A stretch of 64,000 nucleotides of DNA from Cyanidioschyzon merolae (Eukaryota): assembly GCA_000091205.1 (NCBI GenBank), contig AP006485.2, one strand, 5' to 3'. The notes below the pieces were generated by a model, which saw only the letters and a program-made list of their open reading frames with translations, was not told the origin of the DNA and made no database searches. Positions 13,818 to 59,612 of this stretch are shown here, one piece after another; position 1 is the stretch's first letter; each line of letters opens with the position of its first letter. Both the position numbers and the translations under genes were made by a program.

Positions 13818-15021
13818 GTCGTTCTGGAATGCGGACTCCTACCATATCCATGACCTACTCTTAAGGGGAGTATCCAATCAATCGACGCTACCCCGGCGGA
13901 TGAATGTTTTCACGACAGGAGTTTTCACGGGTTTCAGCATGATTCGCAGACTAAGCACGAAATCATATTTTAGGAGTTTCGCTCTGTACAAAACTGCTGG
14001 TCGCTCCGCAAGCACGAAACATCTCCCGATATTCATAGAGACTCCGATATTTCGGTGCAGAACGTGCTCGCACCTGTGGCTGCCAGTGGCATCATTCCAA
14101 AGCGTGCCTGTCATTGTCGATTGCCCCGTTATCTGAGGTTCAGTCAGCATCCGCTGTACCATGATGTGCTTCGGTCTCTGCTTTTCGCGCGTCTGCTTCG
14201 CTGTCCGCTTCACCGGGCACCCTGACTCGTGGAGCGCGTACGTCGACCCAGACGCATCGCTGGGAATCGTGCCGCATCCATGTGCATCCACAGTTGTACG
14301 CTCTCGTGGATGGAGCAGGAGTGCAGCCTTGGCATGCTATAGCGCATCGATTGCTCTGTGGTATCACGAAACGACACGATACGAACGATCGAAGGTTTCC
14401 TTCCCCGTCGCATGAAAAGCGTTGGTGAATGCACGCTTGTCGCCTGGGTAGCACTGGAACCGGTGGCGACCCAGCGCTGTCTCATTGACTCTTGCCGGAG
14501 ATCGTCCGTACGCGCCATTTTGGACGTCTCGGGATGCTCTAGGTGAAGCATCCGAAGCACTGGTGTCGGCGCGAGACTGTACGCAGAGCGTCGAGCTGCA
14601 GGATGGGTGGCTAGGGGCTATGGCGCCTCTGCTGCATCTCCTGGTATGCCGCATGGCGTTTATGACGCTCGACTCTCGATGACGGTGCGCTCTGGGAAAC
14701 TCGAGCCGCTTCATCTGCTTTCACCCAGGATGCAAGGCTCTGTCCTTTTGATCAATACCTATGGCGACGGGCACGACACGCCCACACAAGTAGGCATCCA
14801 AAGTCTTTCTCCAGTACTACCTCGAAGGGTGGAACGTGATTCTCGAGTTTCGAGGTAGGCATAGGTTTCAAAAAGGGCATGCACAGGGATATGAGGTCGC
14901 TTTCGATTTTCGATGTAAGCATCTTTCCATTTCCTCCATGTACTCGATAAATCTTACACAAACTCCGCCGACGCTCTTCTGCCGAGCTGCTCGAATGCTT
15001 CGTAGTTGATCGCAGAGACCA
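13818..15021 (+). repeat. dispersed repeat family B, copy A (~1.2 kb)
   Basis: About 98% identical over ~1204 bp to 58408..59612 in the same orientation. Begins ...tg(g/a)aatgcggactcctaccatatccatgacc and ends ...cgtagttgatcgcagagacca. Track ORFs 13878..14291, 14210..14560 and 14364..14714 are duplicated in copy B. Confidence 0.85.
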
Positions 15022-23646: not shown

Positions 23647-24255
23647 GGGGATACACGCTGAGTTTCGCACTCCGGTATACCTAAAATAAGATTGCCTTTT
23701 TGTAGTGGTTTGCTTTTCTTACAGGGTTACACGCTGAGTTTCGCACTCCGGTATACCTGCAATAAGATTGCCTTTTTGTAGTGGTTTGCTTTCCTTACAG
23801 GGATACACGCTGAGTTTCGCACTCCGGTATACCTGCAATAAGATTGCCTTTTTGTAGTGGTTTGCTTTCCTTACAGGGATACACGCTGAGTTTCGCACTC
23901 CGGTATACCTGCAATAAGATTGCCTTTTTGTAGTGGTTTGCTTTCCTTACAGGGATACACGCTGAGTTTCGCACTCCGGTATACCTACAATAAGATTGCC
24001 TTTTTGTAGTGGTTTGCTTTCCTTACAGGGATACACGCTGAGTTTCGCACTCCGGTATACCTGGAATAAGATTGCCTTTTTGTAGTGGTTTGCTTTCCTT
24101 ACAGGGATACACGCTGAGTTTCGCACTCCGGTATACCTGCCATAAGATTGCCTTTTTGTAATGGTTTGCTTTCCTTACAGGGATACACGCTGAGTTTCGC
24201 ACTCCGGTATACCTGGAATAAGATTGCCTTTTTGTACTGGTTTGCTTTCCTTAAA
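23647..24255. repeat. 76-bp tandem array, ~8 units, 0.2-0.8 kb upstream of the Sec16-like start codon
   Basis: Unit gggatacacgctgagtttcgcactccggtatacctNNaataagattgcctttttgtagtggtttgctttccttaca is repeated head-to-tail 8 times. Variation is almost confined to one dinucleotide (aa/gc/gc/gc/ac/gg/gcc/gg) plus a few ends. Confidence 0.9.
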
Positions 24256-24963: not shown

Positions 24964-25646
24964 TCTACGCTCCCTTCGTGCGAAACGGTGACGCACACCC
25001 TACTGGAATCGATCGCTCGGATGACTCCAGTTCTAGTACCGAATCCTTTCCCAAGCAAACAGAAGAGGCGGGAGCCCCGCAAGCAGCGCACCACATCATA
25101 CGGTACCCTGCTGCTCTGGAATGCCGTCTCGCCGATGAGCGCGAAGAGACAAGCATTTGTCTTTCGAATGCAATGGACCATTCGAAGCGACAAGTGACGT
25201 GAGCAATGGTCATGAGTTTGTGAACGAGTCGTCCATGGACGACGTCAAGGTTCTGGTATTGCTGGATAATCTAGGGACACAAATCGCTTCGCCCCTAGGG
25301 TGCCGTGAGAGAGCAACACTGAAGCGTTGAAGAGTGCACGATTAACGCGTGCTTCACGTACGGAGCTTTAAAGCGTGGGAGCTTGAACCAGTGACTCGGA
25401 TCATTATATCGAATATTCTACGAATCTTTATTCGATTGCGTCGTGAATCCCCCCGATCCCTGTAACGTAACAAATTCCAGCGGTACAGCGTCAAAGGAGG
25501 CATTCCGCGAAAAAATGGCGACCGATCGACAGCAAACTACTCATGAATCTACACGCTCCTGCCTGCTGCATTTCGCATGTCGAGACTGCGGAACTGCAAG
25601 TTCGGATAAATGGAAAAACAGGAACATAGAAAGCAGTAAAGCACTG
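24964..25646 (+). repeat. dispersed repeat family A, copy 2 (truncated at both ends relative to copy 1)
   Basis: Aligns to copy 1 positions 10931..11613 (683 bp) with a few substitutions. Confidence 0.8.
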
Positions 25647-36448: not shown

Positions 36449-37684
36449 TCAGCGCTTGGTCGCATGCGCGGGTGCACCATTCCCCGCGGAGTCGGTCTGG
36501 TCGAGCGCCAGAGCGGCTCGTAGCATCTCGTGCAATGCATCTCCACCGTCAAGGACACTCTCTGCGTCACTGCAGGTGAGGCCCGTGCGCAAGTCTTTCA
36601 CCAAGGTAAACGGACTCAGAATATAGGAACGAACGAGGCGATCTGCACTGCCAAAGCCGGCGCTACCGCCGTGATGTGTCATTGACGCCTGTCGTTGCCT
36701 TCTTTCCTGCAGATAGCGCTCACGGAGTTTCGATCGGAGCACATATAGCGCTCGAGCCTTGTTCTGGTGCTGCGAACGCTCGCTCCGACAGGTTACCACG
36801 ATGCCACTCGGTCGATGGGTGATTCGCACTGCAGAGTCCGTCTTATTCACGTGTTGGCCACCGGCGCCCGAGGAGCGCATCGTCTCGATGAGCAAATCGT
36901 CGGGATGAATGTTGAGCGCTTGTAACGCTTCTGATGCGACTTCTTCTTCATCCAGTAGCGGTATGATCGACACACTTGCAAAGCTCGTGTGACGCCTCTG
37001 GGACGCGTCAAAAGGCGAATGACGAACCAGGCGGTGAATACCGGCCTCGCCACGGAGCCAAGCGGTAGCCCAGGCGAGTCCATCGGTGCCGCTGCGTACA
37101 AAGAGGGCAGCATAGCGAAGTCCGGCGACTTCACCCGGGCTCGAGTCCGTGAGCTTCACTTCTTGGAAACGCAGGGATCGACTCGCCGCCGCAGACTCTG
37201 CCCATCTCTGGTACATGCGAACGAGCATACTACACCAGTCCATGGCCTCAGTACCACCTGCACCTGCCCGGACCTCAACCAGGCAAGAGCGGTGGAGGTC
37301 GGAGGGTTCATCGGCGCTTTCGCTCCGCGTACTCGCCCCATGAAGAAGCGCCATTGCTTCAATTCGCTGCGATCTAAGACGCAGTGCCTCTATCTCATCA
37401 CGAAAGAGAGCACCAGAGTCCGTTGTCGCACTCCCTTCCTCTGAGCAGAGCGTCAAACAGGCCTGAACTTCTGCAGAAAGCGTATCGACTTCGGAAACGA
37501 GGCGCTGTAGCTCAGCTCTTTCGCGAAGCAGCAAAGCACCCTGCTTCGCAGCGCGGGCTGTACTCCAGGTGCCTGGTTGGAGGCATGCGTTTTCGAGCTC
37601 GCGTAGGCGACGAACCAACTGCGGATAGCGCAGGCGCTGACGAACGAGCGCTAAGGAGCGCTGTATGGCTTCTAGGTCCCGCAC
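36449..37684 (-). CDS. organellar (bacterial-type) peptide chain release factor 2 (prfB-like); 5' end unresolved
   Basis: RF2-specific SPF tripeptide (VRHSPFDASQRRHTSFASV), GGQ motif (RSSGAGGQHVNKTDSAVRITH), and AGAGGTEAMDWCSMLVRMYQRWAE. The N-terminal helical domain aligns from the first codon. The track start is GTG and is preceded in frame by TGA. No in-frame ATG exists before residue ~113. Confidence 0.85.
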   Translation of the reverse strand: MRDLEAIQRSLALVRQRLRYPQLVRRLRELENACLQPGTWSTARAAKQGALLLRERAELQRLVSEVDTLSAEVQACLTLCSEEGSATTDSGALFRDEIEALRLRSQRIEAMALLHGASTRSESADEPSDLHRSCLVEVRAGAGGTEAMDWCSMLVRMYQRWAESAAASRSLRFQEVKLTDSSPGEVAGLRYAALFVRSGTDGLAWATAWLRGEAGIHRLVRHSPFDASQRRHTSFASVSIIPLLDEEEVASEALQALNIHPDDLLIETMRSSGAGGQHVNKTDSAVRITHRPSGIVVTCRSERSQHQNKARALYVLRSKLRERYLQERRQRQASMTHHGGSAGFGSADRLVRSYILSPFTLVKDLRTGLTCSDAESVLDGGDALHEMLRAALALDQTDSAGNGAPAHATKR

Positions 37685-37751
37685 CTCGACTGCTGAAGCG
37701 CAACGTGCGCGTCAAGCGCTGTATCACGAAAAAGAATCACAGCTTGATGCT

Positions 37752-37877
37752 TCAAAAAGAGGCGCCAACCGTCACCACGAAACGTAACCTGTTGTTTTTC
37801 CAACGCGGCATCCAGCGCGTGCGGTACAGTTCGACGCTGCCGAACGCTGTACGCGGAGCGTCAACGTGGACGTTCAT
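37752..37877 (-). other. 41-codon ATG-initiated upstream ORF in the +1 frame relative to the RF2 body, ending in UGA
   Basis: ATGAACGTCCACGTTGACGCTCCGCGTACAGCGTTCGGCAGCGTCGAACTGTACCGCACGCGCTGGATGCCGCGTTGGAAAAACAACAGGTTACGTTTCGTGGTGACGGTTGGCGCCTCTTTTTGA translates to MNVHVDAPRTAFGSVELYRTRWMPRWKNNRLRFVVTVGASF. It is basic with no acidic run and has presequence-like character. Confidence 0.4.
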
Positions 37878-38000
37878 GGAACTTGCGGAGAAAGCATTGG
37901 GAAACTCCAACTTTATCAGATTAGAATTGAGGCCTGAGCTCGTCTTTCTGTTCTTGTGTTGTAATTTTTTTCTTTACTTGTTCAGATGTACAGCGATGAG

Positions 38001-39242
38001 ATGCGAAATGCAGCAGGTAGGAGCGTGTAGATTCATGAGTAGTTTTCTGTCGATCGGTCGCCATTTTTTCGCGGAATGCCTCCTTTGACGCTGTACCGCT
38101 GGAATTTGTTACGTTACAGGGATCGAGGGGATTCACGACGCAATCGAATAAAGATTCGTAGAATATTCGATATAATGATCCGAGTCACTGGTTCAAGCTC
38201 CCACGCTTTAAAGTTCCGTACGTGAAGCACGCGTTAATCGTGCACTCTTCAACGCTTCAGTGTTGCTCTCTCACGGCACCCTAGGGGCGAAGCGATTCGT
38301 GTCGCTAGATTATCGAGCAATACCAGAACCCTGACGTCGTCCATGGACGACTCGTTCACAAACTCATGACCATTGCTCACGTCACTTGTCGCTTCGAATG
38401 GTCCATTGCATTCGAAAGACAAATGCTTGTCTCTTCGCGCTCATCGGCGAGACGGCATTCCAGAGCAGCAGGGTACCGTATGATGTGGTGCGCTGCTTGC
38501 GGGGCTCCCGCCTCTTCTGTTTGCTTGGGAAAGGATTCGGTACTAGAACTGGAGTCATCCGAGCGATCGATTCCAGTAGGGTGTGCGTCACCGTTTCGCA
38601 CGAAGGGAGCGTAGACAGACCGAAATTTCTTGACCCGTTTTCCAGCTTGGATCTTGTTTCTGGTAATTGTTCCATCGTCAATAACATTGCGTTTCGCAAA
38701 TCCGCTATCGAACGGAACTGCGTTCACTCTCGTATGCATCGAATAGTGTACTTGCCGAGGGGATTGCCACGCACAAGCCCCGTGATCGTGGGGTACAGTT
38801 GACGCTGCAAAAAAAAGGAGGCGTGCATGGAGCGTACCCTTCAGTAGCAGTCATGGACATGTACGGGGGCGTGAAGCAAGCGTTTCCACGCCCCAGCGCG
38901 GCGCACGGAGGAAATGAGGTGGATATAGAGGGACACACCTGACCATAACACGATATGACTGATGGAAAGGTCGCACAGCGCCTTTGTACAAACAAGCTCA
39001 ACAATGGAACAGCTACGTCGATCGCAATTTTTACTTACGTATTGACTGCGTCGACAACAGGTTGAAGCTGCAAAATCAGGATTTGCACACTGCCATAAAC
39101 ACCCTTCACCTGTTGACAAGTTAGCTCCCAGGAAAGCATTGAGCATCTTGTTCAAAGTCGGTATGGAAGAGGAAGCAGAAGCAGTCGCAAGAGAAACCCC
39201 ACCAAGACTATTATTGATGACAGTGCGAAGAGATCCAAACGT
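38001..39242 (-). repeat. dispersed repeat family A, copy 3 (inverted; ~1.24 kb)
   Basis: The reverse complement aligns to copy 1 at 10303..11545. Its 3' end (element sense) stops 68 bp before the end of copy 2. It lies ~320 bp upstream of the RF2 body. Confidence 0.8.
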
Positions 39243-46750: not shown

Positions 46751-48115
46751 TCATGGATGAATAGTATCTTTGAATTCAAAGAACGAGTCATGCATGCGAA
46801 TGAAAGAGTACTCCTCGCATGACCCACAACACCAGTATAAATTAGGTTCTTTGTGAAAGATAGCGAACCCGGCGTGCATAAAACCTCGGAAAAACTCATC
46901 CAATTCTGGGATAGAGGCGAAACCCGCGTGCACTTCGATAAGGACTTGATTCACGTGCCGCAGCGCGTGCCAGGTTCTCAAGGCATATTGCTCTTCAGAG
47001 CTGAGTTCACGTTGGCTCCGTCCTTGGCGAAGGAGCTTGTCGGCTGCCCGGAACGCTCCCAAGAAAGAGGTGAACTCACCACCCTCGATATCGATCTTGA
47101 GCACCTCGACGACGTTTGGCAGCTCCAGGTGACCCAATCCAGACATGATCTCCGCCAGCGAATTGTTGCTCTCAGCCGGGCCAAGCGGCCGGCGAAAAAA
47201 ACGAACGCGTTCCAGAAAGCTCTCGGAGTGCATCGCAGATGGTGGCGATGATGTTGGGTCAAAGACGAAAAAATCGCAGTCCGGCAAGCGTTCATGAAGC
47301 TTCGTTTCGAAACTGAAATCGTCGTTGCTACCAAAACTGTAAACAATGCAGCGATACGGGAGCCTGAGCTGCTCACGAAACAGCCGTCCCCGGTTCAGGA
47401 TAGCAGGTGGGTCGCACACCCATTTGCCACCGTCTCCGTTGTTACCGATCCGTTCCTCTAAGGTACAGCCGATATCCGGTTCCCAGTTATTGTAGAAAAA
47501 AACCGACGGGTTTGGTTCGAGGGTAACGGTCTGGCGCTTTCGCTGACGTTGTGACCGAATCCTCCGTTGGGCCCAGAGCGCGTCCGACTCGCACCAGAAG
47601 CCGAGCGACTCTTTCAGTGCTCGCGTGTCCTTCGAAGTCACTGGTAGGGTCCGGTCCCAAATCTCCGTCAGGGTTTTCGCGTTGCGCAAAGAGCTCCCAC
47701 GACGAAGAGCCCTCGACACGGAGCGAACGCAGCTGTCATCCACGGCGGGAAGATCCGCGCGCTGGACACCACTAGAGCGTCCGTTGAGAACACTAGTAGC
47801 GCGGTATATTACGATAAGAGCATAAATAAGAAAAGTCAAAGCCCCTGAAGCGATGCACGGTTTTCGCCACGTCATGCCGGCCACTGAAAACAAACGTCTT
47901 TCAAAAGAAAAACGTTGCCGCCAACGGTGTACAGTAGTGACGGGAAACGCGCCGTAAGCAAATCGTCTCCAGCTGAGGTGCAGACGCATCCCAGTCTTTT
48001 TCGACCGTCCACCTACTACGTCTTTCATTTTCTTCTCATATAATTCCACTTTGAGAGGTCGCCCCACAGGTTCTCTCGTGTCGAATCTGGAGGTCTTTTC
48101 TCCAGCACCGCACAT
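46751..48115 (-). CDS. type II membrane protein with an FkbM-family (Methyltransf_21) methyltransferase-like domain
   Basis: ATG at 48115 verified. TM ALTFLIYALIVIY. Motifs CIVYSFGSNDDFSFE (GxG-like), CDFFVFDPTSSP (FkbM ...afEPnp-like) and LKIDIEGGEF (FkbM lKiDvEGaE). Confidence 0.55.
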   Translation of the reverse strand: MCGAGEKTSRFDTREPVGRPLKVELYEKKMKDVVGGRSKKTGMRLHLSWRRFAYGAFPVTTVHRWRQRFSFERRLFSVAGMTWRKPCIASGALTFLIYALIVIYRATSVLNGRSSGVQRADLPAVDDSCVRSVSRALRRGSSLRNAKTLTEIWDRTLPVTSKDTRALKESLGFWCESDALWAQRRIRSQRQRKRQTVTLEPNPSVFFYNNWEPDIGCTLEERIGNNGDGGKWVCDPPAILNRGRLFREQLRLPYRCIVYSFGSNDDFSFETKLHERLPDCDFFVFDPTSSPPSAMHSESFLERVRFFRRPLGPAESNNSLAEIMSGLGHLELPNVVEVLKIDIEGGEFTSFLGAFRAADKLLRQGRSQRELSSEEQYALRTWHALRHVNQVLIEVHAGFASIPELDEFFRGFMHAGFAIFHKEPNLYWCCGSCEEYSFIRMHDSFFEFKDTIHP

Positions 48116-48119
48116 CTCC

Positions 48120-50300
48120 TGATATTGATAGCGACATTAAAGTCTCGGTTCACAAACTCCATGCGTTTCTTGCCATCTTTGGTTGTACTTACTAATACAA
48201 GTAGCCCACGAACGTTCGCCCTCCTTTCCATTTGCTCCTCCGTCAGCGGTCCGTACTTTGCTATTTCGTCGGGGCTCCTCTGGCACTTTTCCATCTCGAT
48301 CCTTTGAAGTGTACAACACAGTTCATGGTGTGTATACGATGTTCGGAACTCATCTACAGGTATTGTAACTAACCGGTCTGCACACCCCTTGTACGTTCTT
48401 GTCGTTGGAGCTGGTGTACACTCTTTTTCAGACGCCTAGCGCCCTGCTCCGTATGCTACTACCAGCCTTTGACTTTCATCCTCTTTGAAGGCACTCAGCT
48501 GATTGAAAAAGTTCGCGAACGCACACTGCTTGCCAACGTATAGATTCATACGCAATCGAGACCACCGGGGCTTTGTATACTCTTTCCACAGTGCCTCCCA
48601 ATGACCAACGCGAACTTTCATGAACTCCCGAAAAGCTTGAAAGTCGGCTCCGCGGCTCGTCACCTCGCCCAAAGCTTCCAGGTGCTCTTTCATTCCTGCA
48701 TTCCATGTCTCGATTTCCTTCCACGCATTCTTTATACCGGATTCTCGATAGTATCTCGCTCTCGAGAACCTCAAAAGACGCATGTCTTTCTGAATGAAGT
48801 TGCCGTCTGGACCATCTTCCGCACGCCTGGGTACAGCGATGGCTGTGACATTCGTATTCCCAGGGTCCGCGCCCACGACAAAGTCGTTATACTTCCTTTT
48901 CTGTGTGGCACAATCCGCCTCCTTCTCATCTTCATACCTCGTCACGTCAACGACAACGTCGTCATCCTGCACTTCCTGTGTCGCAGGATCCGTCTCTTTG
49001 TTTTCTTCATGCTTCGTCATGGGCGAAGCCGAAGGCTCGATAGGACGATACGCCCTCAAGCGCTTGCAGTCTACACAAATGGATACTCCATCGGTTTCGA
49101 TCATCCCCGTGAATACCCTCTGCTTGCTAATTTTGAGACGTTTGAAACTGAAGATATTCTTCCAGTACGTCTCCCGGTTTTCACCGGAGAATTCCTCCCT
49201 GCTGGCATTGAACTCGGGACTGATCTACTTCATGATGCCGTAGACGACTCTGGAGCCGATATAAACAAAATGGGGCTGTATGTTCCATAACGGGATGACG
49301 TAGAAGCGCTTCACCATTAGGAAAGCCCTCGGTCTCTCGCGCTCTTCATTTTTTCCTCACTCAGCTTCATCTCCGTCTTGCGTTCGAGTTTTCGGTCCAG
49401 AAACACGAAATACCGCAGAATGAGGCGATAGTGTCTTTCCATATCTTTTTTCAACTCTGGTACCTTTTCTGCTGGATTCGCCAGCCCAAAAACTGCATGG
49501 TGCTCTTGTATTGCCGCACGGATTACAGAAGCTTCATTCGTGCTCCTGCGTGGCGCCTTCTTGTCACCAAATTCGACCTCATCTTCATGCTTACGATCAT
49601 TCGTGATGCCTTGAAAATCGCACATTTTCCATCGCGAGATAGACCCGGGTAGAGTGCAAACACGGCGCGTATCATGAAACGTTCGAGGTTCACTGTCAAA
49701 TGGTGTTTCAGGTCCGTGATTTACTTCATCGCCCCGTATATGTAGATATTTCCGTCACCGCTGTATCGATTACCCTCGAAGGGGAATTCCACGAAGATTT
49801 CGTGGAGAGCATGCACTAGCTCATTTTCCCTCCGCATACCCCCTGTACCAAGCATCAGTTGACGAATAAACGTCTTGTCGAAAAACTCGTCCGAAACCTC
49901 GACTCTTTCCATGTGCGTCACATCGCGATGCATCGCCCTCACCAAATGCATTAGCCCTGACGATGCGTTTATAATACTTTTGGAGTACGAATCGACACAT
50001 GGTCTCTGATAGCGTCTCGCAAATTTTGCTTGTACTGATCCTTGGTATGTCAAAGAAGACCAGCTTTCACCACCATCTCGTCGCACAGGTGTCTTTTTCG
50101 CCGCCTTCGACGTTGGACCTCCCCTTTCGGTCCTTTTTCTTCTCTTCATTTTCTTCTGGACTCGGTACTGTTTTTTATTTTTTTCTGGCAGCCTGCGACA
50201 CTGGGCCTCCAGGATTATGTACTTGCTTTTTCATAACTTTGCTTTTTTAGTTTTTTTAAGAAGAAAGCCCTTTGAACGCTTCTGGTACACACTGCGAAAA
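48120..50300 (-). other. AT-rich island (~2.2 kb) with three co-oriented minus-strand ORFs of no clear homology
   Basis: Base composition is visibly lower in GC than the flanking sequence. ORFs 50149..49721, 49625..49317 and 49104..48436 lie head-to-tail on the minus strand. Confidence 0.5.
48436..49104 (-). CDS. ORF with a RuvC/YqgF/A22-type RNase-H-fold N-terminal motif (G-x-D-P-G-x-x-N...A)
   Basis: ...[21 protein letters not shown]... compared with E. coli RuvC MAIILGIDPGSRVTGYGVI. Downstream acidic catalytic residues could not be assigned by eye. The ORF ends ...LVVAYGAGR*. Confidence 0.3.
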
Positions 50301-51921
50301 AATTTGAGTAGACTTGTTTGAAGTTTGAAACACAAATGCAACCGAAAAACTGTACTTGGCTATGAACTCAACGAAAATACAACTTTTACATCAGAGCGAC
50401 ACGCTAGAGATCAAGATCACGTTTCCAGTCATCGTCGGCGATATGCGTCATGTCTCAAGCCTGTCTGATCTCCCAGCTGCGCTCGCTGTGCGCGATGCGT
50501 GCACCGCGCGAGACGCCTCACCGATCGATGAAGGACACGTGTCCGACACCCCGCCGTGGCACATGCGTGTTCGCATCGCACTGCAGCTGAAATAAAGTCT
50601 CGTAGATCGGAAACTCACGTGGAACGATCTCTTGCTATAGGCTATGTCGCTGATGCACATCGCAGTACGGACCTGACATACAAGGAGATGCAGGGGCCTG
50701 GCACGATTGCCCGCGATGCTTCTATCAAAGGCGTAGTCACTGTAGCACCTTACGCTTGTGCGAGTGAGGTATGCATCACCCTACTGAATAGGAGTTTCGT
50801 TCGTTTTATTGATCGTGAAAAAACTGTGTGCCGTAGTCTTCCCGACTACGGATATACGTTTATTCCCGTTTCTTGCAGTCCATTCCGCTCAGACGCTGGA
50901 ATGAGAAACTGGTTTGAATTGTGTTTCTATCCGGCGCCAGGCCAGCAAGTGTCGAGCAACCCACCGCAAATTCGTTCTGATCGATGGAATGTGCTTACGG
51001 CTCAATGATCCGAGAATTCACGACGAGTACCGACACCCGGGAAATCTGCCGCCATTGCGCACCAGCTCTGCGATTTCCACCAGTCACATCGCGTGCCTCA
51101 TCTCCGACATTCTGCTTTTCCGACGTTCCATTGTGCCCTGCGACTGCCGTGAGCGTTCGAAACAGCGCCCAAACCGCTGGATCGGGCGTAGCACAGAGAC
51201 CGACAGACATACCCCCTACTGGATTGGAGCCGGGAGCCATCGCTCACACGTAGCACTGCTCATTGCCGATCTCATCTGAATACTCCGTGACCACATTATA
51301 GTGATGGAAAGCGGCAACGTCTAAGGCCAGTGAAGAAGAACGTGCAACGAATAGGTCGCAAAACGTGATTCCCCGCAGCATGCGATGTTGGACGATTAGA
51401 CAATTCTCGGCGATGTATAAGTGACTACATAACCGAGTCGTAGCCAGGGCTAATAGTACCGACAGCCCCGCTGCTTTTTTTCTATGAACAGCAGTTTGCC
51501 CCCGTTTTGAATTATCCATATACAAATCTACCAAGTCTACCGAATAAAGTCTCATAAATTGAGACGGCAAAATGCCCCTGGTGGAAGAAACTTTCTCGTT
51601 GCAGTGCGAAATCGATCGTGCGCTGTTCAAGGTGCTGCAGCTACAAGTAGTAGCCTGCCATCTTCTTCGTTCACTCGTGTCGCTTCACCGCAATTTGTAT
51701 CAACCGTTCGAAAACCTCTCATCCAGCGGCTTCTTTGGAGGTACGTCATGGATATCATCCGGGCTGAAATACATGAAAGACGGGACGCTCATGTAGAGAG
51801 CTTTTGAAACTTGCTGTGGTCGGTGCAAGTCGTTCAAGGAACGGACTACGAGAGGGGTACCTCATACGTCTGCTGTCCGCACTATGTCTGGTCTGGACAA
51901 GTAAAGGCGTTTTGCTCCGAA

Positions 51922-51943
51922 GCCAGCCAGCCAGCCAGCCAGC
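51922..51943. repeat. (CCAG)5 microsatellite
   Basis: gccagccagccagccagccagc. Confidence 0.9.
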
Positions 51944-53307
51944 ATAAAGTCATCTCGCGACCTTTCACCGATCTACAATGTACAATCCACGTTTTGAATA
52001 CCTGTGCGAAAAACAAACAATTACACGTTTAGCGTGTTGATACATGTTCTTGCAAGTGCGCTGCTCTGAGTAAAAAGTCTCGTGATCGGTAGGAAGCATT
52101 CAAGATTTTTAACTTCTGAACCGCAACCTCGTGAGAAATTGCCGAGGCGCGGGTACGGCACCCTCCACTAGCGGGAATACGGTCTGTCTGGGAACCTCGT
52201 TCCTCTCTGGTACCGCAGGTGTGCAGTAGTGCATCCCGGATGCGTCCTGATCCTTCGCCCAAAAGACCTGCCGAGTGTGGCACTGCCGATCGCGAGTCTA
52301 AAACTGCTGTCGCTAAGAGCGATACGCAGGGTTCGCTCAGCAAGCACTGGTTGCCCCAGCAAGCGCTTGGGCTGGTATGCACGCCGCTGCAGTGACCCCA
52401 CGTTTGTCTCTTGGTGCTTTTCGTCATGGCTTTTATTCCGAATGATTGAGCATTCACTCAATACCCCAGAGAAAGACCGGGCGGATGGAGGATGATCGTG
52501 ATTGGCTCACGTCCTCCTCGCACGCATTGCTTCTTCGACAGACTCCCCTGACGCGAAATCTAGTCCATGGTCAGGAATCCCGTCTTGCTTGGCTGGTTGT
52601 ATTGATGACGCATCATGCGCATTGCGTGAACGCTTTCAGCTTGCGCTCACAAAGCCGACGGTCTGTAGCCAAATGATGAGGAGGCAGAATCGAGAACGGA
52701 ATACGCTGTCATTTTGGAGCGTCGCACGGAACGCATGCTCTCTATGAAGACCGCGATACTACGCAGGTATCTCGCTAATGATAGGTCGCGTACGAGGCGC
52801 TTGTGCATAGCTGCAACCTGTTACGTGTGCGGAAAGCTGAATGAATGCATCCAAGTGCCGTCTCTGGTTGCGTTTTTGAAAAGAGGGTCCAAACAAAGCC
52901 CCTGTTGTGTGGTCCCGCCCCGATGACTTTGCAAGCCATGCTGTCGGTAGATTCCCTTCGAAAAGAGCTCAACAGCTCGAGCACGATGCTTACGTATGTC
53001 CAGTGATTCAGAGGCGCCTTGCCAGCTGCTAGGAGCAATGCCGGTTGGATCCATGACACACGTCTCGCAGATGCGTCGAGAATGTTGAATGCCCGCAGGG
53101 CCCCGAGTCGAGCGATCAGGGAAGCGCATGCTCGAGGAGCCACACACGCGCCTGACGACCCGCTGATACTCTAGCATATAGACACACAGATCTCAAGACA
53201 CACAAATAAAGAGCCGCAGATATGCGATACACTCACAAGCCAGCGACCTGCACCGCACAGATCTGGCTTCGTGTGTGAAGAGCGCCTCGCCTGTTCATCT
53301 CCGGGGT

Positions 53308-54953
53308 TCACGATGACGTGGAAAATTCAAAGTCTTCGAGATCCGCATCAGCTGCGACGTTCTCAACCGCAGCACCAGGAGAGAGCGGCAAAGCAAATGC
53401 TTGCCTTTCTCTCCGAGTTTTATGCTTCCAGACATGGAACACGACTTCATCGTCAACATCAGCGACCGATAGCGGGGCAGCGTCGGTAGCAGGATTCTCA
53501 TCCATCACAACTTCTTCTGCGCTCGGTGAAGGCTCGCAGACATCAAGATCAAAAGCGTTATCCCAGTTTGAAACGATCTGGGCTCCAAGCTGCTGCGACG
53601 AAGGCAGTCCAACGTGCTTCGGCCACGTATAGTATGGGATTCTGCCAGTTGCCCAATCTTGCACCAGGACTCGAGCTGCTGCTTCGAGATCAAGAACTCC
53701 CGCTTTGCGTAACAACCCACGCCTTTTTGCAAGCAGTGCCAAGAACTGCGTGGCAAAAGATTCCTCTCGAGTAGCTTCGTTTGCAGCAACCATATCGCAC
53801 ATCGAAAATGCAGGCATTTCGTAGAGTAGAGAGAGCGCTCCATCCGCGTTATACTGACATCGTTCGAGTACCAGGCGAGCCGCAGCCACCGGATCGCTGA
53901 GCTCCTCAACAGCGAGAAATCCAGCGAGCGCCATTCGACTTTCGTCTCGAGAGCCAGATGTCGCATTGGCAACTGGCTCGGGTGAGCCCGCGGCTTTCGT
54001 CTGCTCCACCTCCACCACGGGTGCTGGATCGATTTCCTGCACATCGTCCAGCACAACACCAGGCGAGTCCAGCAACCGGATGTTGCTATCAAGCCGAACC
54101 TCCTGCAGTGTTTTGGTGATACCCGGACGGGCGCCAGTCGCCACAGCACCTTGTTCACGGCAGAGGGCGTTCAGTAGACTTGACTTGCCCACATTCGGTT
54201 TGCCGACGATGCCTACAGTGATGGTGCTGCTGGATGATTGCTTGTCCGCACGCCGTTTCGCATAGAGCTTGAGCAGCTGCACCAGCTGCGAGAGCTGTTT
54301 TGGTTGTACTGCGCTACCTGGCTGCCGCGGGCCCCGGTGCTGACCAGTCTGATCGAGGCCTTCATGCATCGCCAATGTCGGGTACTCGGCCCGAAGTCGA
54401 CACAGCCAGGCCTGGAGAGCTTCACGTGGAACCAGGTCCGCTTTGCTGAGCACCAATATCAGCCGTTTCCCGCCAGCAGCTCGCGCACCCTCGTGACGTA
54501 CCAGCAGCTCGAGCGCTGAAGATCGGCTCTCCAGCGGGTTCCGGGCGTCGAGCACCTCGACAACGACATCCGAAAACTCCACGACACGACGAAGCGCTGC
54601 AGCAAAAGACCGCCTCGAGCGCGCAACTTCGCGGAACACCGGAGTCTTCTCGAGTGCATTCGCACCGGATAACGCAGGAGCGGACACGGGCGACTCGCCC
54701 AAGGAGCCCGCTTCTGCCGTCACCGTCGATCGCAGGGCCAGTCGTCGCGCTGCCTGCTCCAGCAACTGCTCCTTTTAGGGTTGAGGTTCGGTACACCGAG
54801 CTCGCGCTGGGCCTTGCGCTGCCCTTTAATCATACCTTCTTGTCGTTGCTTGCGAACCAGGCGCCGCATTCGTCGATTGTGCTCCGCCACTTTCCGCTGC
54901 ACTTTGTACTTGTGCTTTAGCGTTTCTCGTTTGCTATGGCGATGTGGTGCCAT
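53308..54953 (-). CDS. GNL3/nucleostemin/Nug1-like circularly permuted nucleolar GTPase; reading frame is interrupted at a homopolymer (frameshift)
   Basis: N-terminal ORF 54953..54720 (ATG verified) reads MAPHRHSKRETLKHKYKVQRKVAEHNRRMRRLVRKQRQEGMIKGQRKAQRELGVPNLNPK, matching GNL3 (CHKRYKIQKKVREHHRKLRKEAKK...GVPNSAPFKEE). The body ORF 54765..53308 is in a different frame: ...FSDVVVEVLDARNPLESRS...ILVLSKADLVPRE...GIVGKPNVGKSSLLNAL...DSPGVV (G5-G4-G1-G2-G3 order, DARxP). The two frames join if the T4 run at 54774..54777 (A4 on the coding strand) were one base longer, giving ...VPNLNPKKEQLLEQAARRLAL.... Confidence 0.75.
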
Positions 54954-55685
54954 ATCGCCGTCTTCTCAGAGCACGATTCGAGATTCCAGACGCACCTCTT
55001 TGGAAAAAGACCAATGCTGTACCGAGTCGGTGAAAATGCAAGCAACCGAGAAGCGCTGATAAAGGGATCGCAGCTGAGCAGTCCGCGACGCGAGGCCTAT
55101 CGTACATATGTGTCCATAAAAATACGTAAATGTACCTGTTATAACGAGTCCACACACCACCAATCGTGCGAGGGCGGATGCGCATTGCGTCATCCGCAAT
55201 GGCAACAGCGTTTGGCAAGCTGTCCCTTATATTCATTAAAATACATAAAGATACAGATAGGAACCACAGCGTCCAGGTTCATTTGTGGGAGCGCCCAGGG
55301 CGAAGCTCGCTTGACTCGAACTACGTTCTTCATACACTCCAGCATCGTACCAACTTGGCGGTGAAGGTGTATCCAGTACGCCCCGGTCCCTGCATCGGGC
55401 GAGCACTTTGATCCAGGATTTTTCAGCTCAAAGCCCTCGTTGTTGGACAGCTGTCACGCGCTTCAAGGAGGAGACACTGCTCCCGCAACGCTACTTGCAC
55501 TGATCACCTGGGTAAACGCCGCCTGTTGTGCTGCGCAGCCTCGACGCACCTGTGGCGGTGTTTGTCTAGTCCTTTTCCATTCGACATTGACTGAAACGGA
55601 CTTTCGCTCTGCCCAAATCGCCTACCGTGTTCGTGGAAACAAGTCTCTTCGTCGACACGAGGCTCTGACTGCGTCGCACGCTTCC

Positions 55686-58295
55686 ATGCCGTGCGACGCA
55701 CAAGCGGGCCAGCGGCTTGTTCGGGCCCTGTCGCGAGCAGAGACTTGGGATACTCGGCGGGCTCTGCTGCAGACGCTGGTCTCTGAGCTTCGAGATACCG
55801 AGAGTGTCACTTTTTTCCTACAGGAAACGAAACTTCGCTCGGTGCTCGGCCAGCTAATCGAAAGGGCCTTGCGGGCAGCGCAGCCACACATCGTCGACCT
55901 ACTGGACCTGACGATGCAGGTGATTAAGTGCCTTGTCAAGTCGATGCAGAGAGAGGATGTGGTCGATTTTCTGGAGGAAAGCAAGTCTCTCGTTCACGGC
56001 CTTAAAGCGCTTCGAAAATTAGGACGCAGCAAAGGCGTTTCTGCGGAGAATTTCGTCGCTGACGCATCCGAAAAAGCCTGGGGCGAGCGACTTGCGACCT
56101 TGCGTGAGCAGGCTGCGAATATAATCGCTGAAATGGAACAGGTAGCTGGCCGAGAAAAACCCTCGACGCCATCAGCGCCCGAAGAAACACCAGAGGCAGG
56201 TGAGAGTCGTTCGCTACCGGTAGCCGTGCATGCACCAGTCCAAACAACCGATTCCAGTCACCCTGGTACCACTGAAGCATCTATTCACGCGAATGCAGAT
56301 GCGAGTAACGCTTCTGCAAAGGCCGCTGCATCCCAGGATGATACATCAGAGCCAGCACAGTCGACTGTTGGGGAACACGAAACGCCTCTGGCGGTCGGGG
56401 CGCTTTCGAGTTTCGCCTCGGCAGACGCGTCGATGAAAACGGGACGTAAGCGACCGCGTCCACGACCAGAACGTGACACAGCTTTGCCGGCTTTTACAAG
56501 CTCCTCTGATGAAGCTTCCCAAAGTGTTTCTGCTCGAGCTACGGAATCTGTAGGTACGCAGCCGACCGTCGACGTTAGTGACGCAGATGCGTCGCTCTTG
56601 CCACAACAAGCTTCAGCACACGTAACAGCAGCTCGAGCGGAGCGAATGCATCACTCCGATGCCCTCGAGACAACGTCACCACCTGGAGCAACAATACCCG
56701 AGCGATGTGCGAACGAAGCAACGCATCATGTACCTACACCTACCGTGCGCGATGCAGGTCACACCGGCGATATCGCCGAAAAGGAAGCATCATCAGCCGA
56801 ATCAACATCATTCGTAGCACCAGAAGAGGCAGCAGCAACTTGTGCGATAACCAATCGATCTGCGAAGCGAGCGAAAATGGAGGCTCCGCGTCCAGCCCTT
56901 CGGATCCGAACATCCGCTGACGCATCATCGACGAAACTTGCTCGAAAACCTGCATCAAAGCGTGTTCATTTCGCCCCAGAGCCTGTGCTTGTGCAAGTCT
57001 ATGCCTTTGAATATATTCCCGACGAGCGCACGCATGCCCCTGTGAACCTCGCTGGCATCGTGTCTGATACCGATGAACCGGCATTGGACGGGGAATCAGG
57101 TGCGACGAGTGCGACCAAAGAGCGATCGACGCACGCTCCAGGCAATGGATTCTCAGAGGTCGTAGAGGAGGGTCGTCTCATGCAAAAGAAACGCCAACAT
57201 CGCCAGAAAGTTCTTGCTGAAATGCGGGAGGATGCGACATTCTACCCGCCGCCACATGTCGAGAGTTCCTGTCCGCTGGGAGCAGCTGGCGAATGCGAGC
57301 AGCTGTCCGACGTTCTCGCCAACGGCTCTACTGTTGGATGCGTTCCACGCAACGCGGACAGTCATCAAAGCGGTACCATTGGAGTCGTTTCGCCTGGGTC
57401 GCTATCGTCCGGTGTGCCCGACGAACCGATGCCGCCGTCGCCACCTCGTGAGCGCTCGCTCGACAGGCAGACACCACCACCGAGCCTGCGGGTGATTCCA
57501 GAGTATCGCGTGGAGCATCCAGCTCCAACCTCGTTTTCCTACACACCGGCAGGGGCGCTTGCACCGGCGGGAACACCAGAAGCGACCGTATCTGCACCAG
57601 CGGCTGCCACGACTGCAAACCTATTGACATCGTTCCACGGGACACGAGGCCCAAGTACGCTGGATCCAACGCGATTGCAAACGAAGCCCTCGGATCGGAT
57701 ACAGCCGCCTCACCTGGAGACCAGCCTCTGGTCAGCGATTCCACCGAATACGAGCGGCACGCCTGTTTCGGCTACATCGCAAGGCCAGCATACCGACCTA
57801 TTGCAGCGCAATCAGATAGATGAGGCTATCTTGCAGCATTTCCTGCTCGTGAAAGACGAAGAGACCCGTTTACAATTACTTTGTGATGAAAATGTCCTGC
57901 GAGTAGTCCAAAAGTACGCGGAAGAGAAACAGCGAGAGGCGGCTTTGCAGCACGCACATGGCTACCGCCATGCGAACGCAGCACCCGGTAACCAGTGGAG
58001 CGGTTATCCAGCACCGGCACCGGCACCAGCACCAGCACCACTAGCGGCAGCGTTTCCTGCACTGACTCCTCAACAGGCTCCGTTCCCGGTGTTGAATGGC
58101 ATGCCATCGGACCCGATCGGCTATCACGGATTCGTTTCGCCAGCGCTGCGAAGAGAGACCGCCAGCTCCGCTGCGTACGCTCAAGCGACTGGGGTGAACA
58201 ACGACTCCGCACCTATTTGCAAGTACCACTTGCGCGGTTATTGCAGACGCGGTAAGTGGTGTCGCTTCCGGCATATATCGCCGGACAAGCCATAG
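55686..58295 (+). CDS. PNUTS (PPP1R10)-like protein: N-terminal TFIIS-N-like helical domain, RVxF PP1-docking motif, C-terminal CCCH zinc finger
   Basis: Track start 55440 is TTG; first ATG is 55686. KRVHFAPEPVLVQVYAFEYIPDERTH parallels PNUTS [23 protein letters not shown]. The C-terminus has CKYHLRGYCRRGKWCRFRH (C-x8-C-x5-C-x3-H). The N-terminal helical block (ALLQTLVSELRDTESVTFFLQETKLRSVLGQLIERAL...VDLLDLTMQVIKCLVKS) is TFIIS-N-like. The middle is disordered. Confidence 0.45.
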   Translation: MPCDAQAGQRLVRALSRAETWDTRRALLQTLVSELRDTESVTFFLQETKLRSVLGQLIERALRAAQPHIVDLLDLTMQVIKCLVKSMQREDVVDFLEESKSLVHGLKALRKLGRSKGVSAENFVADASEKAWGERLATLREQAANIIAEMEQVAGREKPSTPSAPEETPEAGESRSLPVAVHAPVQTTDSSHPGTTEASIHANADASNASAKAAASQDDTSEPAQSTVGEHETPLAVGALSSFASADASMKTGRKRPRPRPERDTALPAFTSSSDEASQSVSARATESVGTQPTVDVSDADASLLPQQASAHVTAARAERMHHSDALETTSPPGATIPERCANEATHHVPTPTVRDAGHTGDIAEKEASSAESTSFVAPEEAAATCAITNRSAKRAKMEAPRPALRIRTSADASSTKLARKPASKRVHFAPEPVLVQVYAFEYIPDERTHAPVNLAGIVSDTDEPALDGESGATSATKERSTHAPGNGFSEVVEEGRLMQKKRQHRQKVLAEMREDATFYPPPHVESSCPLGAAGECEQLSDVLANGSTVGCVPRNADSHQSGTIGVVSPGSLSSGVPDEPMPPSPPRERSLDRQTPPPSLRVIPEYRVEHPAPTSFSYTPAGALAPAGTPEATVSAPAAATTANLLTSFHGTRGPSTLDPTRLQTKPSDRIQPPHLETSLWSAIPPNTSGTPVSATSQGQHTDLLQRNQIDEAILQHFLLVKDEETRLQLLCDENVLRVVQKYAEEKQREAALQHAHGYRHANAAPGNQWSGYPAPAPAPAPAPLAAAFPALTPQQAPFPVLNGMPSDPIGYHGFVSPALRRETASSAAYAQATGVNNDSAPICKYHLRGYCRRGKWCRFRHISPDKP

Positions 58296-58407: not shown

Positions 58408-59612
58408 AGTGTTTCTGAAATGCGGACTCCTACCATATCCATGACCTACTCTTAAGGGGAGTATCCAATCAATCGACGCTACCCCGGCGGATGAATGTTT
58501 TCACGACAGGAGTTTTCACGGGTTTCAGCATGATTCGCAGACTAAGCACGAAATCATATGTTAGGAGTTTCGCTCTGTACAAAACTGCTGGTCGCTCCGC
58601 ACGCACGAAACATCTCCAGATATTCATAGAGACTCCGATATTTCGGTGCAGAACGTGCTCGCACCTGTGGCTGCCAGTGGCATCATTCCAAAGCGTGCCT
58701 GTCATTGTCGATTGCCCCGTTATCTGAGGTTCAGTCAGCATCCGCTGTACCATGATGTGCTTCGGTCTCTGCTTCTCGCGCGTCTGCTTCGCTGTCCGCT
58801 TCACCGGGCACCCTGACTCGTGAAGCGCGTACGTCGACCCAGACGCATCGCTGGGAATCGTGCCGCATCCATGTGCATCCACAGTTGTACGCTCTCGTGG
58901 ATGGAGCAGGAGTGCAGCCTTGGCATGCTATAGCGCATCGATTGCTCTGTGGTATCACGAAACGACACGATACGAACGATCGAAGGTTTCCTTTCCCGTC
59001 GCATGAAAAGTGTTGGTGAATGCACGCTTGTCGCCTGGGTAGAACTGGAACCGGTGGCGACCCAGCGCTGTCTCATTGACTCTTGCCGGAGATCGTCCGT
59101 ATGCGCCATTTTGGACGTCTCGGGATGCTCTAGGTGAAGCATCCGAAGCACTGGTGTCGGCGCGAGACTGTACGCAGAGCGTCGAGCTGCAGGATGGGTG
59201 GCTAGGGGCTATGGCGCCTCTGCTGCATCTCCTGGTATGCCGCATGGCGTTTATGACGCTCGACTCTCGATGACGGTGCGCTCTGGGAAACTCGAGCCGC
59301 TTCATCTGCTTTCACCCAGGATGCAAGGCTCTGTCCTTTTGATCAATACCTATGGCGACGGGCACGACACGCCCACACAAGTAGGCATCCAAAGTCCTTC
59401 TCCAGTACTACCTCGAAGGGTGGAACGTGATTCTCGAGTTTCGATGTAGGCATAGGTTTCAAAAAGGGCATGCACAGGGATATGAGGTCGCTTTCGATTT
59501 TCGATGTAAGCATCTTTCCATTTCCTCCATGTACTCGATAAATCTTACACAAACTCCGCCGACGCTCTTCTGCCGAGTTGCTCGAATGCTTCGTAGTTGA
59601 TCGCAGAGACCA
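58408..59612 (+). repeat. dispersed repeat family B, copy B
   Basis: See 13818..15021. Begins 113 bp after the PNUTS-like stop codon. Confidence 0.85.

What the first reader, a model, noticed from the sequence alone, without database searches (positions are those of the whole stretch)
54720..54790. GNL3/nucleostemin-like GTPase gene is split between two frames at a T4/A4 homopolymer
The basic N-terminal segment (MAPHRHSKRETLKHKYKVQRKVAEHNRR...GVPNLNPK) and the GTPase body (LEQAARRLAL...DARNP...GKPNVGKSS) are both clearly GNL3/Nug1-like but lie in different frames that overlap by ~45 nt. Adding one A to the A4 run (coding strand; T4 at 54774..54777 on the + strand) yields a seamless ...VPNLNPKKEQLLEQAARR..., which parallels human ...VPNSAPFKEEVLREAEQRK.... 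This is either a homopolymer indel in the assembly, a recent pseudogenising mutation in an essential ribosome-biogenesis gene, or a slippage site.
Basis: seen in the sequence. Interest (0 to 1): 0.5.

Follow-up and report, generated by a model that had tools for sequence, protein, structure and literature searches.

The report
Dead duplicate of a ribosome-assembly GTPase gene

Summary
The split is real. On the minus strand a 77-codon N-terminal ORF (54953..54720, GN3L_Grn1 domain) and a 485-codon GTPase ORF (54765..53308) lie in different frames.

It is not an A4/A5 homopolymer slip. Against 11 near-identical intact sequences, the window has three substitutions plus a 1-nt deletion inside 15 nt (TACCCCTACAAGAAG -> AACCCTAAAAGGAG). 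This puts a TAA stop in the body frame where relatives have Tyr. The rest of the gene differs by only 0.3-1.1%.

The same lesion occurs in four independent metagenome/SRA contigs that differ from the window elsewhere, so it is not an assembly error.

The window is C. merolae 10D chromosome 3: seven of its proteins are exact matches to BAM79072-79086. The intact 10D Nug1-family protein (BAM83069.1, probably CMT043C) lies on the 1.62-Mb chromosome 20, two genes from CMT041C.

Synteny with Cyanidiococcus shows the window locus is the ancestral position, so the original copy decayed and the relocated duplicate survives.

I found no frameshifting signal. Wild contigs carry further disabling variants (E350*, a 49-codon deletion).

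Verdict: a duplicate-gene pseudogene, of low interest.

The parts
54720..54953 (-). N-terminal fragment of the Nug1/GNL3-type gene. Codons 1-57 match the intact protein and codons 58-60 lie inside the lesion block (homologous positions, residues altered); together these span the basic GN3L_Grn1 domain. They are followed by 17 out-of-frame codons and a TGA stop.
   Evidence: ORF list. Pfam PF08701, E 2.5e-8. DNA differs from intact relatives at only a few sites up to the lesion.
54769..54783 (-). Lesion block. Ancestral TACCCCTACAAGAAG has become AACCCTAAAAGGAG: three substitutions and a 1-nt deletion. This destroys the conserved L-[YW]-P-[YF]-K motif and shifts the frame.
   Evidence: Alignments. 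Four differences inside the block against 0.3-1.1% elsewhere in the gene. The 14-mer is unique in the window.
54775..54777 (-). TAA stop codon in the GTPase-body frame, at the position of a Tyr codon (TAC) in all intact relatives.
   Evidence: Three-frame translation, DNA alignment, codon table (codon 60).
53308..54774 (-). GTPase body (codons 61-548 and the stop) of the disabled copy, still an open frame in strain 10D. It is a circularly permuted G domain (DARNP, SKAD, GKPNVGKSS, DSPG) with the C-terminal region.
   Evidence: ORF 53308..54765. Pfam MMR_HSR1, E 7e-16. Alignment with orthologues. The first in-frame ATG is at 54369, downstream of the G4 motif.
48327..58040 (.). Minimum extent of the segment that also exists, about 99% identical, in the chromosome-20-type context (next to CMT041C). 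The left limit is unknown, but lies right of 43,507.
   Evidence: L005, L004 and L002 are colinear with the window up to 58,040 and then run into a CMT041C orthologue. The clusters for CMC162C, CMC163C and RF-2 each contain only one 10D protein.
58011..58040 (+). (GCACCR)n hexanucleotide microsatellite inside CMC168C. This is where the chromosome-3 and chromosome-20-type contexts diverge.
   Evidence: Sequence comparison of the window and L003 against L002, L004 and L005.
55686..58295 (+). CMC168C (BAM79086.1), the divergently oriented neighbour, with a C-terminal CCCH zinc finger. The chromosome-20-type copy loses the last ~85 codons and the finger.
   Evidence: Exact protein match. Pfam zf-CCCH weak hits in the window protein only. 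The Cyanidiococcus neighbour also has zf-CCCH.

Best explanation
The window is chromosome 3 of Cyanidioschyzon merolae 10D. The split gene is the ancestral-locus copy of the Nug1/Grn1/GNL3-type ribosome-biogenesis GTPase, and it has been inactivated.

A segment of about 10 kb or more was copied to chromosome 20, next to CMT041C. It carried this gene and most of the neighbouring CMC168C. Which chromosome received the copy is inferred from synteny and from the truncated CMC168C copy.

The chromosome-20 copy (BAM83069.1, most likely CMT043C) kept an intact 548-codon frame and presumably supplies the essential function (inferred).

The chromosome-3 copy then suffered a clustered mutation: three substitutions and a 1-nt deletion in 15 nt. 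This destroys a conserved aromatic motif, puts a TAA in the body frame and separates the N-terminal domain from the GTPase. A single complex mutational event is the most likely cause (inferred).

Ordinary scanning translation would give only a 77-residue peptide. The next in-frame AUG of the body lies beyond the G4 motif, so no functional GTPase is expected.

The lesion is old enough to be shared with wild relatives that are about 1% divergent.
For: Identity of the window:
- Seven window ORFs are exact matches to 10D proteins BAM79072/75/78-81/86, on a 481,791-nt contig.
- Three more are exact matches: BAM79082-84.

Intact paralogue:
- It reads ...NLYPYKKQLL... and differs from the window translation at 8 further residues, so it cannot be encoded by the window.
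- CMT041C = BAM83067.1 is on the same 1,621,617-nt contig.
- Orthologues of CMT041C lie two genes from the Nug1 gene in L002, L004 and L005.

The lesion is real:
- The identical 14-mer occurs in L004, L006, L007 and L008, from other samples. Each has 27-73 mismatches to the window elsewhere.

Clustering:
- Four differences in 15 nt against 0.3-1.1% in the rest of the gene.

Ancestral position:
- Cyanidiococcus has CMC169C - CMC168C(CCCH) - Nug1 - CMC165C - CMC163C - CMC162C, in the window's order.
- In PMC13353863 supplement 6, the only C. merolae orthologue at that syntenic slot is CMT043C.
- Its supplement 10 lists chromosome-3 proteins as CMC163C, CMC165C, CMC168C, CMC169C, with nothing for this locus.

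Decay:
- Further disabling variants occur in wild contigs: GAG->TAG at codon 350 (L004; P0124 and P0127 end at residue 349) and a 147-nt deletion (L002).
Against: - I could not read the chromosome-20 DNA of 10D. Neither P0123 nor CMC168C is in the contig index. The paralogue therefore rests on accession order, contig length and neighbouring-gene evidence.
- BAM83069.1 = CMT043C is inferred, not read.
- The body ORF of the chromosome-3 copy is still open in 10D.
- Polymorphism across all 16 sequences gives 15 non-synonymous to 17 synonymous sites. That does not look fully neutral, although intact and dead copies are mixed in this count.
- Metagenome contigs do not sort cleanly. L003 has the chromosome-3 context with an intact gene, and L004 has a CMT041C flank with the lesion. 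Either short-read assemblies of two 99% paralogues are chimeric, or the lesion is polymorphic at one or both loci.
- Expression of the chromosome-3 copy is untested.
Confidence: 0.85

Rival explanations
1. Sequencing or assembly error at a homopolymer: the real genome has an intact gene here and the frame break is an artefact of the reference sequence.
For: The break sits next to short homopolymers (A4 and C3 on the coding strand). A single added A restores a 548-codon frame.
Against: - The identical lesion, including its three substitutions, is in four independent assemblies from other samples that differ from the window at 27-73 other sites.
- Intact relatives do not have A5 here but a different 15-mer.
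- The repaired protein lacks the two conserved aromatic residues.
Confidence: 0.02
2. Programmed -1 ribosomal frameshifting (or transcriptional slippage) at CCU AAA A joins the two frames, so the chromosome-3 copy still makes a full-length GTPase.
For: - The two ORFs overlap by 46 nt.
- A -1 shift anywhere between the TAA and the TGA would join them.
- The body ORF is still open in 10D and in three of the four lesion-bearing wild contigs.
Against: - There is no X_XXY_YYZ slippery heptamer. After a -1 slip, tRNA-Lys on AAA would have to pair with UAA.
- An A4 run is far too short for transcriptional slippage.
- The 121 nt downstream fold no better than shuffles (z -0.54; 56 of 200 shuffles fold as well).
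- All orthologues use a single frame.
- One lesion-bearing contig also carries a nonsense codon at position 350.
- An intact paralogue removes any need for recoding.
Confidence: 0.03
3. In wild populations the lesion is mainly an allelic null polymorphism at one locus, sheltered in heterozygous diploids, rather than a fixed difference between two paralogues. 10D happens to carry the null at chromosome 3.
For: - Lesion and intact forms occur on mosaic flanking haplotypes.
- L003 shows the chromosome-3 context with an intact gene, and L004 and L005 are colinear over 11.4 kb but differ at the lesion.
- C. merolae has a diploid phase. The wild strain MS1 is a heterozygous diploid with 0.57% haplotype divergence (PMC13353863).
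Against: - Short-read metagenome assemblies of two 99%-identical paralogues from mixed strains are expected to be mosaic, so linkage over 3 kb is unreliable.
- This does not change what the window holds. 10D is haploid and has the intact copy on another chromosome.
Confidence: 0.1

Closest known systems
Nug1 (S. cerevisiae) / Grn1 (S. pombe) / GNL3 nucleostemin and GNL3L (human): nucleolar, circularly permuted YlqF/YawG-type GTPases of pre-60S ribosome assembly
   Same: - N-terminal basic GN3L_Grn1 domain plus MMR_HSR1 G domain with order G5-G4-G1-G2-G3.
- The intact paralogue's best solved relatives are Grn1 (8esq_s, 1.5e-49), Nug1 (3jct_s, 1e-39) and human GNL3 (8fkp_NB, 1.2e-39).
- The motif G-[VI]-P-N-x-[YWF]-P-[YF]-K is shared.
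   Different: The window copy is interrupted. The motif is destroyed, a stop lies in the body frame, and the two domains are in different frames.
[quoted passage not shown]
   Same: 98% identical in protein (537 of 548 positions against the one-base repaired translation). It has the same neighbour type: a CMC168C-like gene in divergent orientation, as inferred from the class II contigs.
   Different: - It is intact and lies at a derived position next to CMT041C.
- Its CMC168C-like neighbour is truncated at a microsatellite and lacks the zinc finger.
- The equation with the locus tag CMT043C is inferred from accession order and from the orthogroup table in PMC13353863.
Non-processed (duplicated) pseudogenes, and gene relocation by duplication followed by loss of the parental copy
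   Same: A near-identical paralogue elsewhere in the genome, disabling lesions, and further independent disabling variants in the population.
   Different: - The copy at the ancestral, syntenic locus is the one that died.
- The genome is noted for very low redundancy (my own knowledge of the C. merolae genome papers; the 2007 paper's text has no occurrence of 'pseudogene').
Programmed -1 ribosomal frameshift sites
   Same: Two overlapping ORFs related by a -1 shift.
   Different: No slippery heptamer, no stimulatory structure, and not conserved in orthologues.

Membership tests
GNL3/Nug1/Grn1 subfamily of circularly permuted (YlqF/YawG) GTPases | N-terminal basic GN3L_Grn1 domain (PF08701) | tested here: met
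   E 2.5e-8 (34.4 bits; cutoff 22.3) on the 77-aa fragment, and 6.2e-11 on the one-base repaired protein.
GNL3/Nug1/Grn1 subfamily of circularly permuted (YlqF/YawG) GTPases | G domain with permuted motif order G5-G4-G1-G2-G3 | tested here: met
   DARNP (136-140), SKAD (170-173), GKPNVGKS (251-258), T280 and DSPG (296-299) occur in that order. All are invariant in the alignment. MMR_HSR1 E 7e-16.
GNL3/Nug1/Grn1 subfamily of circularly permuted (YlqF/YawG) GTPases | Closest relatives are Nug1/Grn1/GNL3 rather than Nog2/GNL2 or Lsg1 | tested here: met
   PDB search with the intact paralogue: Grn1 1.5e-49, Nug1 1e-39, GNL3 1.2e-39, against Nog2/GNL2 about 1e-27 and Lsg1 about 1e-18.
GNL3/Nug1/Grn1 subfamily of circularly permuted (YlqF/YawG) GTPases | One continuous reading frame encoding both domains (a functional member) | tested here: not met
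   Frame break and in-frame TAA at 54775..54777. The locus is a family relic, not a functional member.
Duplicated (non-processed) pseudogene | Disabling lesion relative to close functional homologues | tested here: met
   A 1-nt deletion plus a TAA stop, relative to 11 intact sequences.
Duplicated (non-processed) pseudogene | Intact paralogue in the same genome | tested here: met
   BAM83069.1 of strain 10D lies on the 1,621,617-nt contig, while the window's genes lie on the 481,791-nt contig. This is indirect, because the chromosome-20 DNA itself was not retrievable.
Duplicated (non-processed) pseudogene | Flanking DNA duplicated with the gene (not a retrocopy) | tested here: met
   Contigs with the CMT041C (chromosome-20-type) flank are colinear with the window from at least 48,327 to 58,040, including intergenic DNA and most of CMC168C.
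Duplicated (non-processed) pseudogene | Relaxed selective constraint | tested here: inconclusive
   - 15 non-synonymous against 17 synonymous polymorphic sites over all 16 sequences.
- Changes seen only in lesion-bearing sequences: 4 non-synonymous (including one nonsense) against 2 synonymous. These numbers are too few, and the contigs may be mosaic.
Duplicated (non-processed) pseudogene | No functional product (no translation of a full-length protein) | not testable with these tools
   This needs RNA-seq, Ribo-seq or proteomics of 10D that can tell the two 98-99% identical copies apart.
Programmed -1 ribosomal frameshift signal | Slippery heptamer X_XXY_YYZ in the overlap | tested here: not met
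   The 0-frame reads AAC CCT AAA AGG AGC AGT TGC TGG ... CGG TGA. I saw no heptamer of that form when reading it.
Programmed -1 ribosomal frameshift signal | Stable downstream stimulatory structure | tested here: not met
   MFE -52.8 against a shuffle mean of -50.8 kcal/mol, z -0.54.
Programmed -1 ribosomal frameshift signal | Frameshift architecture conserved in orthologues | tested here: not met
   Cyanidiococcus, Cyanidium and all other homologues, as well as the 10D paralogue, use a single frame.

The most novel reading that the evidence does not exclude
The two copies (chromosome 3 and chromosome 20) of this essential ribosome-biogenesis GTPase may be silenced differently in different wild C. 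merolae lineages.
- One contig has the chromosome-3 context with an intact gene (L003).
- Another has the CMT041C (chromosome-20) flank with the frameshift and a nonsense codon (L004).

If those contigs are not assembly chimeras, crosses between such lineages would produce haploid segregants with no working copy. That would be a naturally segregating 'divergent resolution' incompatibility, in an alga whose sexual cycle has only just become tractable.
Probability: 0.1. Interest if true: 0.55.

Novelty: new member of a known kind. Interest (0 to 1): 0.2.

Why it matters
Mainly as housekeeping:
- The frame break is genuine and should not be 'repaired' in the reference sequence.
- The locus should be labelled as a pseudogene.
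- Orthology tables should note that CMT043C is a relocated copy of a gene whose ancestral slot on chromosome 3 (between CMC165C and CMC168C) is now dead.

It is also a small, clean example of gene relocation by duplication and parental-copy loss, in a genome famous for minimal redundancy.

It flags an inter-chromosomal duplication of about 10 kb at about 99% identity. Such a repeat can confuse short-read assemblies and read mapping, and it could mediate rearrangements.

Tried and rejected
- **Mini-intron.** A 23-nt GT..AG stretch (GTACCGAACCTCAACCCTAAAAG) would restore the frame. It would also remove the conserved VPN..P.K motif and is far below spliceosomal intron size. All relatives are colinear through it. 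Rejected.
- **Second copy inside the window.** tblastn of the repaired protein finds only this locus.
- **Donor for the lesion sequence.** The 14-mer, with up to one mismatch, occurs nowhere else in the window.
- **Chromosome-20 locus of 10D.** P0123 and CMC168C are not in the contig index, so the 10D paralogue's DNA could not be read.
- **Literature.** No paper in the library names CMT041C-043C or CMC166C-168C. In the 2007 complete-genome paper, 'pseudogene' does not occur, and the only non-reference hit among my search terms concerns subtelomeric elements.
- **Assigning each wild contig to a copy.** Flanking haplotypes are mosaic and the contexts do not sort with the lesion. This is left unresolved.
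- **Selection analysis.** The dN/dS-style count is uninformative at this divergence.

Full report
**The observation**

On the minus strand, an ATG at 54953 opens a 77-codon ORF ending at 54720. A second ORF runs from 54765 to 53308 in another frame.

- The first ORF encodes the basic N-terminus MAPHRHSKRETLKHKYKVQRK...GVPNLNPK. It hits Pfam GN3L_Grn1 (E 2.5e-8).
- The second hits MMR_HSR1 (E 7e-16). It has the permuted motif order DARNP / SKAD / GKPNVGKSS / DSPG.
- Adding one A to the A4 run gives a continuous 548-aa product.

So the split is real.

**What the lesion actually is**

A protein search found 98-99% identical full-length proteins of exactly 548 aa. Their DNA (L001, L002) aligns with the window without gaps except at one spot.

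- Relatives read CTC TAC CCC TAC AAG AAG CAG.
- The window reads CTC AAC CC- TAA AAG GAG CAG.

That is three substitutions and a 1-nt deletion within 15 nt (54769..54783).

- The deletion is best placed in the C run or just before it. Placing it in the A run costs five substitutions.
- In the GTPase frame, the Tyr codon TAC has become TAA (54777..54775).
- Outside this block, the window differs from the 15 related sequences at only 0.3-1.1% of sites.
- Four changes in one 15-16-nt block is therefore very unlikely under independent mutation. The Poisson probability is about 3e-6 to 5e-5 per block, and below 0.005 after allowing for about 100 blocks.
- A single complex mutational event is the likeliest origin. 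This is an inference.

The block hits the motif G-[VI]-P-N-x-[YWF]-P-[YF]-K. That motif is conserved from Cyanidiales to Dictyostelia and fission yeast.

**Not an assembly artefact**

I searched JGI metagenome contigs with a pattern spanning the site. I also inspected the contigs behind three 471-aa gene calls in the same 90% cluster. Together these gave four further sequences with exactly AACCCTAAAAGGAG:

- L004 (Ga0080006_1176537)
- L006 (Ga0506614_02356)
- L007 (Logan SRR6207159)
- L008 (Ga0506617_00925)

Each is about 99% identical to the window but has 27-73 mismatches elsewhere. Eleven other contigs carry the intact 15-mer.

**Where the window comes from, and the second copy**

Ten window ORFs are exact matches to C. 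merolae 10D proteins BAM79072-BAM79086 (CMC15x-CMC168C), all on a 481,791-nt contig, which is chromosome 3.

- It reads NLYPYKKQLL.
- It differs from the window translation at eight further residues.
- It is therefore a different gene.

Three wild contigs (L002, L004, L005) leave colinearity with the window at about 58,040. This point is exactly at a (GCACCR)n microsatellite, 85 codons before the end of CMC168C. They continue into a 697-aa gene. The 10D orthologue of that gene is CMT041C = BAM83067.1, on the same 1,621,617-nt contig and two accession numbers before the Nug1 protein.

So strain 10D has two arrangements:

- CMT041C - truncated CMC168C copy - intact Nug1, on chromosome 20.
- Frameshifted Nug1 - full CMC168C with CCCH finger, on chromosome 3.

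The shared block spans at least window 48,327..58,040. It does not reach CMC163C (43,507), because the clusters for CMC162C, CMC163C and RF-2 each hold only one 10D protein.

**Which copy is ancestral**

In Cyanidiococcus yangmingshanensis (L016), the orthologue is flanked by orthologues of CMC169C and CMC168C (with zf-CCCH) on one side. On the other side are CMC165C (Methyltransf_22), CMC163C and CMC162C. This is the window's gene order.

The orthogroup table of PMC13353863 (supplement 6) shows CMT043C as the only C. merolae gene in that slot, between CMC157C and CMC169C. Its 10D protein list jumps from CMC165C to CMC168C.

The window locus is therefore the ancestral position. The chromosome-20 gene is the relocated duplicate, and it is now the annotated functional gene.

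**Consequences for function**

- Scanning ribosomes starting at 54953 would terminate at 54720 after 77 residues.
- The first in-frame ATG of the body (54369) lies downstream of DARNP and SKAD, so a truncated product would lack G5 and G4.
- I looked for recoding and found none. There is no X_XXY_YYZ heptamer, the A run is only four bases, and the 121 nt downstream fold no better than shuffles (z -0.54). No orthologue has a two-frame layout.
- A 23-nt GT..AG 'intron' would restore the frame. It would also delete the conserved motif, and it is implausibly short.

**Population picture and open points**

Other disabling variants exist in wild contigs:

- GAG->TAG at codon 350 in L004. The 349-aa proteins P0124 and P0127 end exactly there.
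- A 147-nt in-frame deletion in L002.

Flanking SNP haplotypes are mosaic, and context does not sort with lesion state:

- L003 follows chromosome 3 beyond 58,040 but is intact.
- L004 has the CMT041C flank but carries the lesion. Its 36.4-kb contig apparently also holds chromosome-3-only genes (kinesin, RF-2).

There are three possible reasons: chimeric short-read assembly across a 99% repeat in mixed strains, gene conversion, or real polymorphism or rearrangement.

PMC13353863 reports that C. merolae is haplodiplontic and that wild strain MS1 is a heterozygous diploid. It also reports that 10D and MS1 Ha3 differ by 0.71%, one inversion and one reciprocal translocation. Its Figure S3 legend highlights chromosomes 3 and 19.

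I could not resolve this with the tools available. It does not affect the reading of the window itself.

**Comparison with known things**

- The gene belongs to the Nug1/Grn1/GNL3 subfamily of permuted GTPases.
- The locus is a duplicated, non-processed pseudogene.
- The only mildly unusual aspects are three: the parental copy is the dead one, the lesion is a tight multi-change cluster, and it occurs in a genome known for minimal redundancy.

I found no paper describing it.

**Verdict**

The finding is real, and it is explained as an ordinary pseudogene with an intact paralogue. Interest is low.

Noticed in passing
window 58011-58040: A (GCACCR)n hexanucleotide microsatellite inside CMC168C is exactly where the chromosome-3 context (window, L003) and the CMT041C/chromosome-20-type context (L002, L004, L005) diverge. 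Repeat number also varies between contigs.
   Followed up: partly
window 13822-15021 and 58413-59612; also 10303-11548, 37998-39242 (inverted) and 24964-25646: There are two families of interspersed repeats of about 1.2 kb, with copies 98.5-99% identical within the window. One copy lies just beyond CMC168C. I did not characterise what they are.
   Followed up: no
window 23648-24253: A tandem array of about eight 76-nt units at 94-98% identity, seen in the window self-comparison.
   Followed up: no
window 36449-37900, minus strand: The mitochondrial RF-2 gene is annotated as 301 aa from its first ATG (BAM79082.1). The frame stays open for about 115 codons upstream with no in-frame ATG. Gene calls on wild contigs give 411 aa (P0378, 51 contigs). 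The true start (non-ATG, an upstream exon, or another shift) is unclear.
   Followed up: partly
window 47972-49196; L005 12767-13918: An element with ORFs of 222 and 229 aa and no Pfam hit has a paralogue of about 76% identity beyond CMT041C in the chromosome-20-type contigs. Together with a 142-aa ORF (49721-50149), it has no tblastn match in the Cyanidiococcus locus L016, where the CMC165C-Nug1 gap is about 1.7 kb against 5.2 kb in the window.
   Followed up: partly
L004 (contig Ga0080006_1176537, 36.4 kb): One wild contig apparently joins genes that are chromosome-3-only in 10D (kinesin P0200, RF-2 P0378) to a CMT041C orthologue (P0345), through the duplicated block. I matched those proteins to this contig only by its length (36,401 nt). 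It is either a chimeric assembly or a recombinant/translocated arrangement. PMC13353863 reports a reciprocal translocation between 10D and the Yellowstone strain MS1 Ha3.
   Followed up: partly
L004 codon 350 (window about 53904-53906); L002 (window 53834-53979 missing): Further disabling variants of this gene occur in wild contigs. One is a GAG->TAG nonsense codon, also implied by the 349-aa proteins P0124 and P0127, which have an intact N-terminus. The other is a 147-nt in-frame deletion.
   Followed up: partly
L011, L012, L014, L015 (window about 55059-53044): Four Logan contigs of about 2 kb carry the intact form. Two of them share the same 3' end at window 53044. They look like transcripts, which suggests mRNA ends near 55059/55011 and 53044. 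No transcript-like contig with the lesion was seen.
   Followed up: no
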